DNA from: Mobula hypostoma
Lineage: Eukaryota
Reading direction: 5' to 3'
DNA: 64,000 nucleotides
Assembly (NCBI RefSeq): GCF_963921235.1
Contig: NC_086097.1
Location: 43,526,001-43,590,000, forward strand
Shown here piece after piece: positions 3,301 to 6,300 of this stretch. Under the pieces are notes generated by a model, which saw only the letters and a list, made by a program, of their open reading frames with translations, searched no databases and was not told the DNA's origin. Each line of letters opens with the position of its first letter. Position 1 is the stretch's first letter. The translations under genes were made by a program, and so were the position numbers.

Positions 3301-6300
3301 TCAGCAGCTCTCTTCAGCATACCAATGAGAAGGACGTCCTAAAAATCCCAGTAAGTTTTGTCTAGGATAGATTTATTTTGATTTGATCCACTCAATGACC
3401 TTAAAGTTAAAAATGGATGCTTACCAGAATGCTTGCTTGTTGCAGATGATGCGCCCAAGTAGTAAACAGATTTTGGCGCATTTGCTGATCGAAGTATCCT
3501 GCATATGCAATAAAGGCAGCTGACAGTAAGCAGTCTCCAGCAATGGTGGCCATTTGGTTCTTAAAAGTTTCACTGGTCTTTTCCCAGCGGTCTCGTTCAG
3601 CTGACAAACTCTTCAACAGGGCAGTACTTCGGTTAACCTGAAAGAAGGTTTTACAATTACAATACAAAATGATTTCATCTAACTGAGCCAGAAGGAGCTC
3701 CCTATCACTCTTTACCCTTCATAGAAAGACTTCTGTATAATAATTAAAAGTTCCATTATAAAACAATGTACATAATCATACTCACCTTTGCTTCTACAGC
3801 TGCAAGATCTGCCTTAATGGCTTGGGCTTCAGATATCAGAACAGCATACTCTTCTTTGTAACGTGCAATACTGGTTTCCAGATCACGGATCATTTGCTCT
3901 ACTTCATCAGCCTTCTGCTGGTTCTCTTTTGCATCATCTTCTAGCTTCTGTAGTTCATTGCGTAAAGGTTCGACTCGTTTTAACATATCAGCATAATTAA
4001 GCTACAAATGAAATAATGTGAAATTAATTTATCCAATGCGACTGCTACTGAAAGGGGTAAAACTAGTCTTAAGAAATTTTACAGGAAATAGAAATAAATG
4101 GCAACAAAAACAAATATGCTCCAAGTTAATTTGATGCTCTTTCAACTGATACCGAAAGGTTAAAACATTTTTTTCTCTCCAGATATTTTTTCCTCAGTTA
4201 CTTACCTGTGCAATAGCCCATTTTACCATTGGACCACAAGCCAAAGATGCTCTGTTGACAATTTCATAGTTGTAGCTTGGATTGGACATGTAGTTTTTCT
4301 TCATCTTCTCACGGATAACATCACTGTTGAGTAAAAGATGAGTATTAATACAATTGCTCACTTACAATTTTAAGAGCGGAAATTCAATACAAATACGCTT
4401 TAATAAACAGAAAACTGCTAGTCACATAGATTATATGATGCATAGTAATGAAGTGCCGCAACACAATCAAAATGCAAGAAAGATGTGACTTTTAAAATAA
4501 AAGTAATGAGTACCTTAATTCCTCAGTATTAAAGTTGACTATGCTGCTGATGAAATTATCTCTGATAATAACTTGTCTGATCTTTTTCCAGTCATTTGTC
4601 TCCTCACCCAGCAAGAGACAGATTGATTCTAATGCGAGTTTTACTGCAGCGGGTGGATTGGCCATGGCTCTCACTTCAACAAGATGCTGCTTCTTTATAG
4701 AGCTTACAGCTAATAGAGGGGGCGAAAAGAAATGGGCTTTAAATGAACATGCAAGTGGATGAGGGTGTGTGGCCGTTGCTGGGTGTTAGGAGGAAATTTA
4801 TATGTGAATACCAGCAATACATAATACCACCCAAACAAAATTTTGGGTTCATAAATACTAAATAAAATGCTACTTTTGTAAATAATCCATTGCTTTAATG
4901 ACTCCTTAACTCTAGTATATTGGCTGGTATTCTGTACAATTTCCATCTTCCTCCAGCAGCTGCGTGCACCCCATTATTCACCTGATTTCGTCAGCTGAAA
5001 AATTTACAATGGTCGGAATGAAGTTTTCTCTCATTATGATCGATCGGATCTGTTTCCAGTCAGTTGTACTTTCACCCAGGAGCAGACAGATTGATTCGAG
5101 TGCAAGCTTCACTGCACCTGGCGGATTAGCCATTGAACGAACCTCAACCAAGTGCTGCTTCTTGATCGATTTTACAGCTAATCAGATCAGCAAGATGCGC
5201 CAGAGTGCAAATAAAGTGAAAGAAATGTAAGTTAGGAGGGACAGAAAATTGAAAGATTAATACCACATAGAAAAGACCAATCAGTTGCTTAAAAAGGAAG
5301 AAAATTAACAGGATTATAGTTACAAGGGTAAAAAGATAAACAATATGATATACAGGCAGCAATTAGTACATTATTTCATTTTCATATTGTTTCTCCAGAA
5401 CGCAATTCAAAACAAGTCTAACCATTCTGAGCCTCAATGACAGCAGGCTCTACCATATCCAAATCTTCCTTTACTTTCATCTGCTTGTCAGCAATAATTT
5501 CTTGCTGTTTGTGCAGCTGCTCCTGAATTTCTTGACTCATCACCTATCAAAAAAAAACAGAAGATGTATGAGACCACTCCTCCAGTTGAAACCTTGATTC
5601 TTCTTTTGCTTCAGCATTCAGCTTCCCTGATTCAGCGTTCTTCTCTTGTTAAGCTACCTTTTTCTTTTCAGCCTCTTGTTGGTCCTTCACCATTTTCTTC
5701 AGTTTATCATTGGCTGCTGCATTTTTAACTTCTAGTTCTTGGCTTTTAATTCTGAGATCTCGGCGTAATTCTTCAACCTACAGTGAAAGGATTAAAAAAA
5801 ACAAACTAACTGAATATGAGAAAAAGTCTATTAAGATTATCCTCCTACCAGAAGCAGCCTAATTGGTATTTAGGCTTCCAGCTTTTTAAAGGATTATATT
5901 CAATCAGGACAATTTTTAAAAACATTCTTGGATGCATCATTAAAGGAAAAATAAAATTGGTTGCTCAAAAAAACAGATTCTTGGCCAAGCGGTTATAATA
6001 TCCAAAAGCTACAAAGGAAGGTTTGGAGAAGAAAAAGGAAGAACCTCCTACTGAATTTACAGCAACTGAGAGTTTCCATTTCAAACTGCAAATAAAGTAT
6101 GACTTCACAGGGCACTAAGACTTTAGATCAATGTAAATATCTTAGATACAACAAAGGTAAACTGTACCCAGCTTACGAAGTTACTTAAAATACAAACAGA
6201 AGGCAATCAACCATTAGGGAAAGGGATTAGAAGCATTTCTCATTAAACCTAACGTGCAAAAGCTTTATATTATGCCAAAACAATCTAACTGGAGAATTAG

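What the first reader, a model, noticed from the sequence alone, without database searches (positions are those of the whole stretch)
4514..5177. Duplicated, apparently mutually exclusive exons encode two alternative microtubule-binding domains of cytoplasmic dynein-1
Seen in sequence: two tandem exons, A (4982-5177) and B (4514-4709), are each exactly 196 nt. Both start attag|CTGTA, end AG|gt and run phase 1 to phase 2 without stops, so either one joins exon 5423-5543 to exon 4206-4323 in frame. Because 196 is not a multiple of 3, including both or neither causes a frameshift. They share 50 of 66 residues, and about 24 of those 50 codons differ synonymously, which indicates an old duplication kept under purifying selection rather than an assembly artefact or decaying copy. 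Established knowledge: this segment is the N-terminal part of the stalk-tip MTBD, and the human gene as I recall it has one such exon, matching A. Inference: alternative splicing swaps the motor's microtubule-binding foot. I cannot check whether this has already been reported in fishes.
Basis: partly seen in the sequence, partly recalled or inferred. Interest (0 to 1): 0.92.

Follow-up and report, generated by a model that had tools for sequence, protein, structure and literature searches.

The report
Dynein-1 gene with two alternative microtubule-binding exons
This vertebrate's cytoplasmic dynein-1 heavy-chain gene has two tandem, interchangeable versions of the exon that encodes the front part of the motor's microtubule-binding tip; both are spliced into RNA, the second version is old and widely conserved in vertebrates, and what it does differently has not been tested.

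Summary
On the minus strand, exons A (5177-4982) and B (4709-4514) are each 196 nt with AG/GT borders and the same phase. They are 140/196 nt identical. Either one alone keeps the frame between exons 5543-5423 and 4323-4206; both or neither breaks it.

Spliced contigs from public runs show all four junctions: downstream-B and B-upstream in X1 and X9, downstream-A in X11, and A-upstream in X11 and X9. No A-B junction was seen.

Exon B is not species-specific. B-type segments sit in 35 database proteins, including RefSeq "isoform X2" of zebrafish, salmon, reedfish, Xenopus and other frogs and a lizard, plus a cobra and hagfish and lamprey "-like" genes. They form one clade with 99/97 support. 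Frog X1 and X2 differ only inside this exon. All 19 mammalian and 7 bird proteins sampled are A-type.

The exon maps to human DYNC1H1 3296-3359, helices H1-H4 of the microtubule-binding domain. Eight positions separate A from B completely.

Eight literature searches found no paper on the vertebrate case, only a Schistosoma dynein precedent. This scan noted the same arrangement earlier in an arthropod genome. I class it as a new member of a known kind; a functional difference between the two forms is inferred, not shown.

The parts
5423..5543 (-). Constitutive upstream exon (121 nt), end of stalk coiled-coil CC1. Its donor joins either exon A or exon B.
   Evidence: open frame, TG|gt donor; joints 5177>5423 (X11 side 119, X9 side 24) and 4709>5423 (X1 side 29, X9 side 24).
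4982..5177 (-). Exon A (196 nt, phase 1 to 2): the canonical version. It is 94-98% identical in protein to the mammalian, bird, frog and fish A-type segments.
   Evidence: joints 5177>5423 and 4323>4982 (X11); solved human and mouse structures carry this version.
4710..4981 (-). Intron between A and B (272 nt), GT..AG. Not alignable to the other introns and evolving freely.
   Evidence: 16 (X11) and 10 (X9) differences here against 0 in exon B. Low-depth unspliced contigs cover it (depths 9.45, 6.58, 34.5); only short, imperfect inverted repeats.
4514..4709 (-). Exon B (196 nt, same phase): the alternative version, differing from A at 16 of 64 whole codons.
   Evidence: joints 4323>4514 (X1 in a 4180-nt contig, X9 in a 4294-nt contig, side 118) and 4709>5423; orthologues in 35 proteins, forming one clade at 99/97.
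4206..4323 (-). Constitutive downstream exon (118 nt), the rest of the microtubule-binding domain from the fifth helix on. Its acceptor receives either A or B.
   Evidence: joints 4323>4514 and 4323>4982.

Best explanation
Exons A and B are a mutually exclusive pair made by an ancient tandem duplication of one exon of the cytoplasmic dynein-1 heavy-chain gene (DYNC1H1).

Shown here:
- Each exon is spliced on its own between the same two flanking exons. This gives two mRNAs whose proteins differ at 16 of 66 residues.
- The differing stretch runs from the last turn of stalk helix CC1 through helices H1-H4 of the microtubule-binding domain (human residues 3296-3359).
- Because 196 is not a multiple of three, including both exons or neither shifts the frame into early stop codons.
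- The B version is far older than this species. It occurs in hagfish, lamprey, ray-finned fishes, frogs, squamates and a turtle paralogue.
- B carries eight positions whose residues never overlap with those of A.

Inferred:
- Transcripts with both exons or neither are removed by nonsense-mediated decay, so the reading frame enforces exclusivity. Cell-type-specific splicing factors choose which exon is used.
- The two forms differ in how the motor holds the microtubule: affinity, run length, speed, or sensitivity to tubulin tails or microtubule-associated proteins. The fixed differences lie in the H2-H3 loop, H3 and H4, and they change charge (K to S, S to E, Q to K; net +1 to 0). H1 and H2 are nearly the same in both.

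My odds: real, expressed and ancient exclusive pair, about 0.9. A biochemical difference in microtubule interaction, about 0.55.
For: Anatomy
- Equal length, equal phase and AG/GT borders; only single inclusion keeps the frame.

RNA (Logan contigs of four coded runs laid on 3400-6950)
- Eight joints were found, all with CT..AC on the plus strand, which is GT..AG on the gene strand.
- B-form: 4323>4514 in X1 (depth 826, 4180-nt contig spliced across three further introns, side 118) and X9 (4294-nt contig); 4709>5423 in X1 (side 29) and X9 (side 24).
- A-form: 4323>4982 in X11 (side 30); 5177>5423 in X11 (side 119) and X9 (side 24).
- The short sides of 24-30 are what a 31-mer assembly graph yields at a fork between alternative paths. 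This is my reading of the contig ends at 4681 and 5446.
- X1 has 0 differences from the window, so it is the same species. X9 and X11 are 95-99% alike.
- The genome holds no second copy of exon B, so a retrocopy does not explain the spliced contigs.

Constraint
- dN/dS between A and B is 0.108.
- Exon B has 0/196 differences in X11 against 16/272 in the adjacent intron (Fisher p 1.6e-4) and 23/964 in the other coding exons (p 0.02). In X9 it is 0/196 against 10/272 (p 0.006).

Orthologues
- 35 proteins carry a segment 75-94% identical to B and 61-78% identical to A. A-type segments are 94-98% identical to A (240 proteins examined).
- In the tree (66 rows, 64 columns) vertebrate B forms one clade at 99/97 (31 rows) and vertebrate A one at 96/84 (16 rows).
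- Mixophyes X2 against X1: 23 of 23 mismatches fall in this exon. Xenopus laevis: 21 of 21.
- Lacerta agilis X2 is B-type. Isoforms X1 and X2 of the turtle '-like' gene are B-type and A-type respectively.

Structure
- The segment aligns to human DYNC1H1 3296-3359, and all 27 PDB sequences matched are A-type or more distant.
- In the AlphaFold model of a fish B-type fragment the stalk and tip region has pLDDT 81-90. The exon covers the end of CC1 plus four short helices.
- The eight A/B-disjoint positions fall at the CC1 end (1), the H2-H3 loop (1), H3 (3), H4 (2) and the H4-H5 loop (1).

Literature
- Charge changes in this domain, even away from the interface, scale run length and speed (PMC4987762, passages).
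- CC1 and H1 are the parts that move on binding (PMC6629372, section 6).
Against: - All four runs are only guessed to be RNA. That they are RNA rests on the splicing seen in their contigs.
- Contigs cannot give isoform ratios or show absence.
- X7 gave only unspliced pieces.
- Two of the four key joints have sides under the tool's 31-letter rule, and I laid at 90% likeness.
- No biochemical data exist for a B-type domain.
- In the 4.1-A structure H3 and H4 sit well above the microtubule surface, so the fixed differences may not touch tubulin directly.
- B evolves faster than A (30 of 64 invariant columns in 30 rows, against 58 of 64 in 16 rows). This could mean a less demanding role.
- Nonsense-mediated decay of double or null inclusion is inferred from the frame only.
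- The overall model quality is low (mean pLDDT 59.1); only residues about 131-400 are usable.
Confidence: 0.85

Rival explanations
1. The exclusive pair is real, but the two protein forms are biochemically equivalent. The duplication is kept for regulatory reasons, for example two exons answering to different splicing or expression programmes, not because the microtubule-binding properties differ.
For: - H1 and H2, and the lysines at the start of H1, are the same in A and B.
- In the 4.1-A structure H3 and H4 stay high above the microtubule.
- B is the more variable copy.
Against: - Eight positions have non-overlapping residue sets in 16 A rows and 30 B rows. These are held from cyclostomes to reptiles, and three of them change charge.
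- Such long-term, copy-specific protein constraint is hard to explain without a protein-level difference.
- Charge changes in this domain alter run length and speed (PMC4987762).
Confidence: 0.25
2. Exon B is an unused or decaying duplicate, or a rarely used cryptic exon, and the gene effectively makes only the A form.
For: Mammalian and bird proteins sampled are all A-type. A review states a single isoform in mouse and human (PMC3824068).
Against: - B is joined to both neighbours in long, high-depth spliced contigs of two runs.
- It has an open frame and dN/dS 0.108.
- It shows 0/196 changes against 16/272 in the adjacent intron.
- Orthologues are modelled as isoform X2 in many species.
Confidence: 0.03
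3. The main role of the pair is dosage control. Co-inclusion or double skipping makes frameshifted transcripts that are degraded, so the second exon acts chiefly as a 'poison' switch on dynein levels.
For: - Both double inclusion and double skipping give early stops.
- Low-depth contigs keep the A-B intron unspliced. One of these (X9 record 10) already has the upstream intron removed.
Against: - No A-to-B spliced joint was seen in 4 runs, although contigs show presence only.
- B-only mRNA is assembled at high depth.
- Protein-level conservation of B-specific residues is not needed for a poison exon.
Confidence: 0.05
4. The doubled exon is an assembly artefact, such as a collapsed or duplicated haplotype.
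For: None beyond the tandem arrangement.
Against: - The copies are only 71% identical in DNA with unalignable introns.
- Independent runs, including two related species, carry both copies and the intron between them.
- Unnamed genomic contigs of other fishes read through A then B in the same order (P0001, P0002).
Confidence: 0.01

Closest known systems
RefSeq/Ensembl 'cytoplasmic dynein 1 heavy chain 1 isoform X2' models of other vertebrates (Danio rerio, Salmo salar, Oncorhynchus kisutch, Conger conger, Erpetoichthys calabaricus, Xenopus laevis, Mixophyes fleayi, Ranitomeya, Lacerta agilis and others)
   Same: - They carry the orthologous B-type exon at the same protein position.
- They are 75-94% identical to window B.
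- In frogs, X1 and X2 differ only in these 64 residues.
   Different: - They are automatic gene models in other species, with no described function.
- I found no paper about them.
- The window adds a lineage that is equidistant from tetrapods and ray-finned fishes, probably a cartilaginous fish (inference).
Mutually exclusive exon of the Schistosoma mansoni cytoplasmic dynein heavy chain (SmDHC1), Pillmann et al. 2011, PMC3228551 (passages seen); cited by Kollmar 2016, PMC5100056 (passages seen)
   Same: A DHC1 gene with two homologous exons of identical length and split codons at both ends, judged mutually exclusive.
   Different: - It is a flatworm gene.
[quoted passage not shown]
- It was predicted from sequence. 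Here all four junctions are seen in spliced contigs.
Doubled copies of the same exon in invertebrate dynein-1 models (Spodoptera exigua, Nymphon striatum, Medioppia, Soboliphyme, Trichuris) and the arthropod case found earlier in this scan (e1-7594727)
   Same: Two tandem versions of the segment that encodes the front of the microtubule-binding domain.
   Different: - In the tree the nematode second copies group with nematode first copies (99/91), not with vertebrate B. These look like separate duplications.
- Their splicing was not tested here.
Classical mutually exclusive homologous exon pairs in motor and cytoskeletal genes (arthropod muscle myosin heavy chain clusters, named in PMC3228551; alpha-tropomyosin exons 2/3, recalled)
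   Same: Tandem exon duplication swaps one structural element of a motor or filament protein while keeping the fold.
   Different: - There is a single pair, not clusters.
- The 272-nt intron and ordinary GT-AG sites do not fit the steric-hindrance or U2/U12 mechanisms known for some pairs. Here the frame itself forbids double inclusion.

Membership tests
Mutually exclusive homologous exon pair (tandem exon duplication) | Adjacent internal exons of the same length, same phase and conserved splice sites | tested here: met
   Both are 196 nt, phase 1 to 2, with attag|CTGTAA acceptors and AG|gt donors.
Mutually exclusive homologous exon pair (tandem exon duplication) | The exons are homologous and encode the same structural element | tested here: met
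   140/196 nt and 48/64 whole codons are alike. Both align to human DYNC1H1 3296-3359.
Mutually exclusive homologous exon pair (tandem exon duplication) | Each exon is joined in RNA to both flanking constitutive exons | tested here: met
   4323>4514 and 4709>5423 for B; 4323>4982 and 5177>5423 for A. Two of these joints have sides of only 24-30 letters.
Mutually exclusive homologous exon pair (tandem exon duplication) | Never both and never neither in productive mRNA | tested here: inconclusive
   The frame breaks in both cases (9 and 2 stops). No A-to-B joint was seen in 4 runs, but contigs show presence, not absence.
Mutually exclusive homologous exon pair (tandem exon duplication) | Both copies kept under purifying selection in related species | tested here: met
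   dN/dS is 0.108. Exon B has 0/196 changes against 16/272 in the intron. The B clade has 99/97 support across vertebrates.
Cytoplasmic dynein 1 heavy chain (DYNC1H1), microtubule-binding domain | Sequence match to solved dynein-1 microtubule-binding-domain structures at the stalk tip | tested here: met
   E 7.5e-29 to 3j1t; also matches 3err, 6rzb and human full-length chains at 3296-3359. The window covers residues about 845-3685 of the protein at about 90% identity to bony vertebrates.
Cytoplasmic dynein 1 heavy chain (DYNC1H1), microtubule-binding domain | Long coiled-coil helix followed by a bundle of short helices, then a return helix | tested here: met
   AlphaFold model of the B-type fragment P0007: helix 117-220, short helices 224-231, 238-250, 258-265, 270-275, 284-295 and 302-308, then helix 312-439. 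pLDDT is 81-90 in this part.
SmDHC1 mutually exclusive exon (Pillmann 2011) | Same exon position in the protein | not testable with these tools
   [quoted passage not shown] No Schistosoma sequence was among my hits.
Exclusive pairs enforced by steric hindrance or by U2/U12 splice-site incompatibility | Intron between the pair too short to splice, or one U12-type and one U2-type site | tested here: not met
   The intron is 272 nt. All sites are ordinary GT..AG with no U12-like donor. A distant branch point was not excluded experimentally.
Exclusive pairs enforced by competing RNA base-pairing (docking and selector sites) | Conserved complementary intronic elements | tested here: inconclusive
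   Only short or imperfect inverted repeats were found, the best 17 nt at 88% within the A-B intron. No cross-species intron alignment was available.

The most novel reading that the evidence does not exclude
Dynein-1 is usually treated as a motor with a single heavy-chain isoform. In this reading it has had a second, alternatively spliced microtubule-binding 'foot' since before the split of cyclostomes and jawed vertebrates. The B foot survives in fishes, amphibians and non-avian reptiles and was lost in birds and mammals. It gives the motor distinct track-binding behaviour in particular cell types. The same exon has been duplicated independently in nematodes, arthropods and possibly flatworms, which would mean that animals repeatedly needed two flavours of this one structural element.
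Probability: 0.35. Interest if true: 0.8.

Novelty: new member of a known kind. Interest (0 to 1): 0.6.

Why it matters
Nearly all mechanistic work on cytoplasmic dynein uses mammalian, yeast or Dictyostelium motors. The mammalian gene is described as giving a single heavy-chain isoform (PMC3824068).

A conserved alternative version of helices H1-H4 of the microtubule-binding domain is present in zebrafish and Xenopus as well as in this genome. If it holds up, the two best vertebrate developmental models make a second dynein-1 that nobody appears to have characterised.

This makes several things directly testable:
- how sequence in H3 and H4 tunes microtubule affinity and run length;
- whether particular tissues or microtubule populations need a different foot;
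- why birds and mammals seem to do without it.

It also matters for reading morpholino, CRISPR and disease-model results in fish and frog. A lesion or guide in exon A would spare the B form, and the reverse.

Tried and rejected
- RNA holders: the look-up of sequencing runs listed no holder on record as RNA. All 24 rows are 'RNA?' guesses or unknown.
- Run X7 gave only two unspliced pieces (4783-4976, 4982-5236) and no joints.
- Parts of the stretch without cover in some runs are not used as evidence.
- Isoform ratios and tissue specificity cannot be taken from contig depths. Human-like contigs are filtered, which could hide exon A. I make no claim on usage.
- Competing RNA structure: the inverted-repeat scan of 4150-5600 gave 23 short pairs and none convincing.
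- A third copy of the exon: none in the window or in the genome by DNA search.
- Notes near this place in the scan's earlier findings: none.
- Literature: eight full-text searches and passages of PMC5100056, PMC3824068, PMC3228551, PMC9303857 and PMC8410232 gave no description of a vertebrate DYNC1H1 alternative microtubule-binding exon. Subscription-only papers and supplements were not seen.
- PMC9117880 held none of the residue names I searched.
- Bird and mammal genomes could not be searched for a B remnant. Absence there rests only on sampled protein models.
- Tandem repeats as the cause of the skewed intron composition: none found.
- I first took the turtle B-type protein for the canonical gene. 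It is a diverged '-like' paralogue.
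Full report
**1. The observation**

Read on the minus strand, the region holds four exons of a cytoplasmic dynein-1 heavy-chain gene:
- upstream exon 5543-5423 (121 nt)
- exon A 5177-4982 (196 nt)
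- exon B 4709-4514 (196 nt)
- downstream exon 4323-4206 (118 nt)

A and B both follow attag| and begin CTGTAA. Both end AG|gt. A script confirmed that up+A+down and up+B+down each read through 145 codons without a stop. Including both exons gives 9 stops and including neither gives 2. The first stops fall at codon 117 and codon 48 respectively.

A and B share 140 of 196 nt. Of 64 whole codons, 24 are identical, 24 differ synonymously and 16 change the residue. Nei-Gojobori dN/dS between the copies is 0.108 with dS about 1.9. The duplication is therefore old and both copies have stayed coding.

The similarity ends within a few bases of the exon borders: the repeat is 203 nt at 72%. The whole window is DYNC1H1, residues about 845-3685, on the minus strand, and only this exon is doubled. 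In the 3.48-Gb assembly a DNA search with exon B finds only B and A.

**2. Is exon B used?**

The look-up of sequencing runs listed 24 coded runs, none on record as RNA. I laid the Logan contigs of four of them on 3400-6950 at 90% likeness. Eight joints came back, all with CT..AC on the plus strand, which is GT..AG for the gene. They include the constitutive introns on both sides.

| Junction | Run | Detail |
|---|---|---|
| downstream to B (4323>4514) | X1 | contig 4180 nt, depth 826, side 118 |
| downstream to B (4323>4514) | X9 | contig 4294 nt, side 118 |
| B to upstream, skipping A (4709>5423) | X1 | side 29 |
| B to upstream, skipping A (4709>5423) | X9 | side 24 |
| downstream to A, skipping B (4323>4982) | X11 | side 30 |
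| A to upstream (5177>5423) | X11 | side 119 |
| A to upstream (5177>5423) | X9 | side 24 |

No A-to-B joint appeared. Contigs that keep the A-B intron unspliced exist at low depth (9.45, 6.58 and 34.5). X7 gave only unspliced pieces.

The short sides of 24-30 letters are below the tool's 31-letter rule. They are what a 31-mer graph produces at a fork between alternative paths: the unspliced contigs start at 4681, 29 nt inside B, and A and B share their first 6 nt. This is my reading, not a tool result.

Splicing across many introns shows that the contigs come from RNA. The genome has no retrocopy of exon B. X1 is identical to the window. X9 and X11 differ by 1-5% and are relatives.

Depths of contigs cannot rank isoforms, and human-like contigs are filtered. 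I claim presence of both forms, not their ratio or tissue.

**3. Constraint between close relatives**

| Region | X11 differences | X9 differences |
|---|---|---|
| Exon B | 0/196 | 0/196 |
| A-B intron | 16/272 (p 1.6e-4) | 10/272 (p 0.006) |
| Other coding exons | 23/964 (p 0.02) | not compared |
| Exon A | 2/196 | 1 |

Counts come and the tests. Exon B is at least as constrained as the constitutive exons, synonymous sites included. I recall that this is common for regulated alternative exons; that point is not tested here.

**4. Relatives elsewhere**

*The two protein searches.* A search with the B peptide among longer proteins gave 152 hits among 403 candidates, 120 listed. It returned unnamed genomic read-throughs that hold an A-type then a B-type copy in tandem (P0001, P0002). 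It also returned teleost fragments with B (Poecilia, Larimichthys, Coryphaenoides) and a frog protein with B spliced in. A second search, with the frog B region against full-length proteins, gave 186 hits among 191 candidates, 120 listed.

*B-type proteins found.* Scoring all 240 proteins against window A and B gave a bimodal picture. A-type segments are 94-98% identical to A. 35 proteins carry a B-type segment, 75-94% identical to B and 61-78% to A. Among the 35 are:
- RefSeq 'isoform X2' of Danio rerio, Salmo salar, Oncorhynchus kisutch, Conger conger, Erpetoichthys calabaricus, Xenopus laevis and five other frogs;
- Acipenser and several percomorphs;
- the cobra Ophiophagus;
- '-like' proteins of Myxine, Lampetra and Chrysemys.

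*The tree.* I built a maximum-likelihood tree of 66 segments over 64 columns. Six mis-registered or corrupted rows were dropped: P0003 second copy, P0028 (a duplicate of P0125), Nymphon second copy, both Coryphaenoides low-quality rows and Medioppia. The tree puts all 31 vertebrate B rows in one clade (99/97) and all 16 vertebrate A rows in another (96/84). Cyclostome B rows lie at the base of the B clade. They share the derived B states S at position 2, E at 36 and K at 42, where 13 invertebrate rows mostly have K, variable residues and A/Q. The B type therefore predates the cyclostome-gnathostome split. Whether cyclostomes also keep an A exon was not tested.

*Isoforms differ only in this exon.* Within one species the two RefSeq isoforms differ nowhere else: Mixophyes 23 of 23 mismatches and Xenopus laevis 21 of 21.

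*Birds and mammals.* I sampled a 1102-member amniote cluster (40 members read, 15 listed):
- 14 of the 15 hold the segment.
- 7 birds, 5 mammals and 1 sea turtle are A-type.
- Lacerta agilis isoform X2 is B-type.
- All 19 named mammalian representatives are A-type.

This fits loss of B in birds and mammals, but it rests on protein models only.

*What the window is.* The window's protein is about 90% identical to both tetrapods and ray-finned fishes and about 81% to cyclostomes. This fits a lineage outside bony vertebrates, probably a cartilaginous fish. That is an inference.

**5. Where the difference sits**

The segment aligns to residues 3296-3359 of human DYNC1H1 and to the solved microtubule-binding-domain structures 3j1t, 3err, 6rzb, 3wuq and 5ayh. 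All of these are A-type.

I made an AlphaFold model of a 623-residue fish fragment carrying B, with a 14-row alignment. Mean pLDDT is 59.1, but 81-90 over the stalk and tip. In the model the exon (residues 219-282) covers the last turn of CC1 and four short helices: 224-231, 238-250, 258-265 and 270-275. The next exon begins before the fifth helix. I call these H1-H4 by order, following the naming used in PMC6629372.

Comparing 16 A rows with 30 B rows, eight positions have non-overlapping residues. Numbering is human; P0030 was left out because a one-residue insertion shifts its register.

| Human position | A residue | B residue | Location |
|---|---|---|---|
| 3297 | K | S | end of CC1 |
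| 3331 | S | E | H2-H3 loop |
| 3337 | Q | K/R | H3 |
| 3340 | S | Q/T/P/L | H3 |
| 3341 | I | V | H3 |
| 3349 | P | S/T/G | H4 |
| 3350 | T | S/N/Q | H4 |
| 3356 | A | S/P/T/I | loop before H5 |

H1 and H2 are almost the same in both forms. Net charge of the segment is +1 in 15 of 16 A rows and 0 in 29 of 30 B rows. A is nearly frozen (58 of 64 columns invariant). B varies more (30 of 64).

**6. How it most likely works**

Shown: two mRNAs, each with one of the exons, and a reading frame that forbids both or neither.

Inferred:
- Frameshifted products are removed by nonsense-mediated decay.
- The choice between A and B is made by cell-type-specific factors.
- Steric hindrance and U2/U12 incompatibility do not fit, because the intron is 272 nt and all sites are GT-AG.
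- A competing-structure mechanism is neither supported nor excluded.

Function is also inferred:
- CC1 and H1 are the elements that move when the domain binds (PMC6629372, section 6).
- Charge changes in this domain, even away from the interface, scale run length and speed (PMC4987762, passages).
- The fixed A/B differences include three charge changes and a proline lost from H4.

I therefore expect the B motor to differ in microtubule affinity or processivity, or in its response to tubulin tails or MAPs. Against a direct contact role, H3 and H4 sit well above the lattice in the 4.1-A structure.

**7. Comparison with what is known**

Mutually exclusive homologous exons are a classical kind of splicing. 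A DHC1 example was predicted in Schistosoma mansoni (PMC3228551) and mentioned by Kollmar (PMC5100056), without naming the domain.

The vertebrate B isoform already sits in automatic annotations. Eight full-text searches found no paper that describes it. A review states that the mouse and human gene gives a single isoform (PMC3824068).

Invertebrate gene models with two copies of the same segment turned up as well: Spodoptera, Nymphon, Medioppia, Soboliphyme, Trichuris and unnamed P0004. The nematode second copies group with nematode first copies. The exon therefore seems to have been duplicated more than once.

**8. Verdict**

It is a new member of a known kind and is already visible in databases for other species. 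It appears undescribed and functionally untested, and it runs against the common view of dynein-1 as a single-isoform motor.

Noticed in passing
P0136, P0260 and eight further cluster members (turtles); not in the window: Turtles carry a diverged 'DYNC1H1-like' gene beside the canonical one. Chrysemys-like is 95.8% identical to a bird, against 98.6% for the canonical Chelonoidis protein, with mismatches spread along the whole length. Its isoform X1 has the B-type exon and X2 an A-type exon with small changes of its own (R to H, K to Q, A to G in some species).
   Followed up: partly
P0121, P0122, P0124, P0128, P0131, P0004; not in the window: Gene models of a moth, a sea spider, a mite and two trichinellid nematodes, and one unnamed contig, hold two copies of the same microtubule-binding-domain segment. 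The nematode second copies are very divergent and group with nematode first copies, which suggests independent duplications of this exon.
   Followed up: partly
window 12700-19460, 27850-32300, 32910-37830, 38410-42870: The large introns show strong positive GC skew (0.2-0.28) and hold remnants of mobile elements. There is an ORF with a weak reverse-transcriptase match (16436-17044 +, 22.9 bits, below cut-off). There is a GIY-YIG nuclease match above cut-off (33681-34229 -, 24 bits), which I recall as typical of Penelope-like elements. There is also a weak endonuclease/exonuclease/phosphatase match (38416-38982 +). No tandem repeats were found.
   Followed up: partly
window 4681-5452 (X1 record 2), 4681-5177+5423-5446 (X9 record 10), 4514-5011 (X11 record 5): Low-depth contigs keep the A-B intron unspliced. 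In X9 the upstream intron is already removed while the A-B intron is retained. This may be a splicing intermediate or a retained-intron product.
   Followed up: no
P0253 (Phocoena sinus isoform X1, 4701 aa): This mammalian isoform is about 55 residues longer than the usual 4646. Its microtubule-binding exon is A-type. The extra stretch was not located.
   Followed up: no
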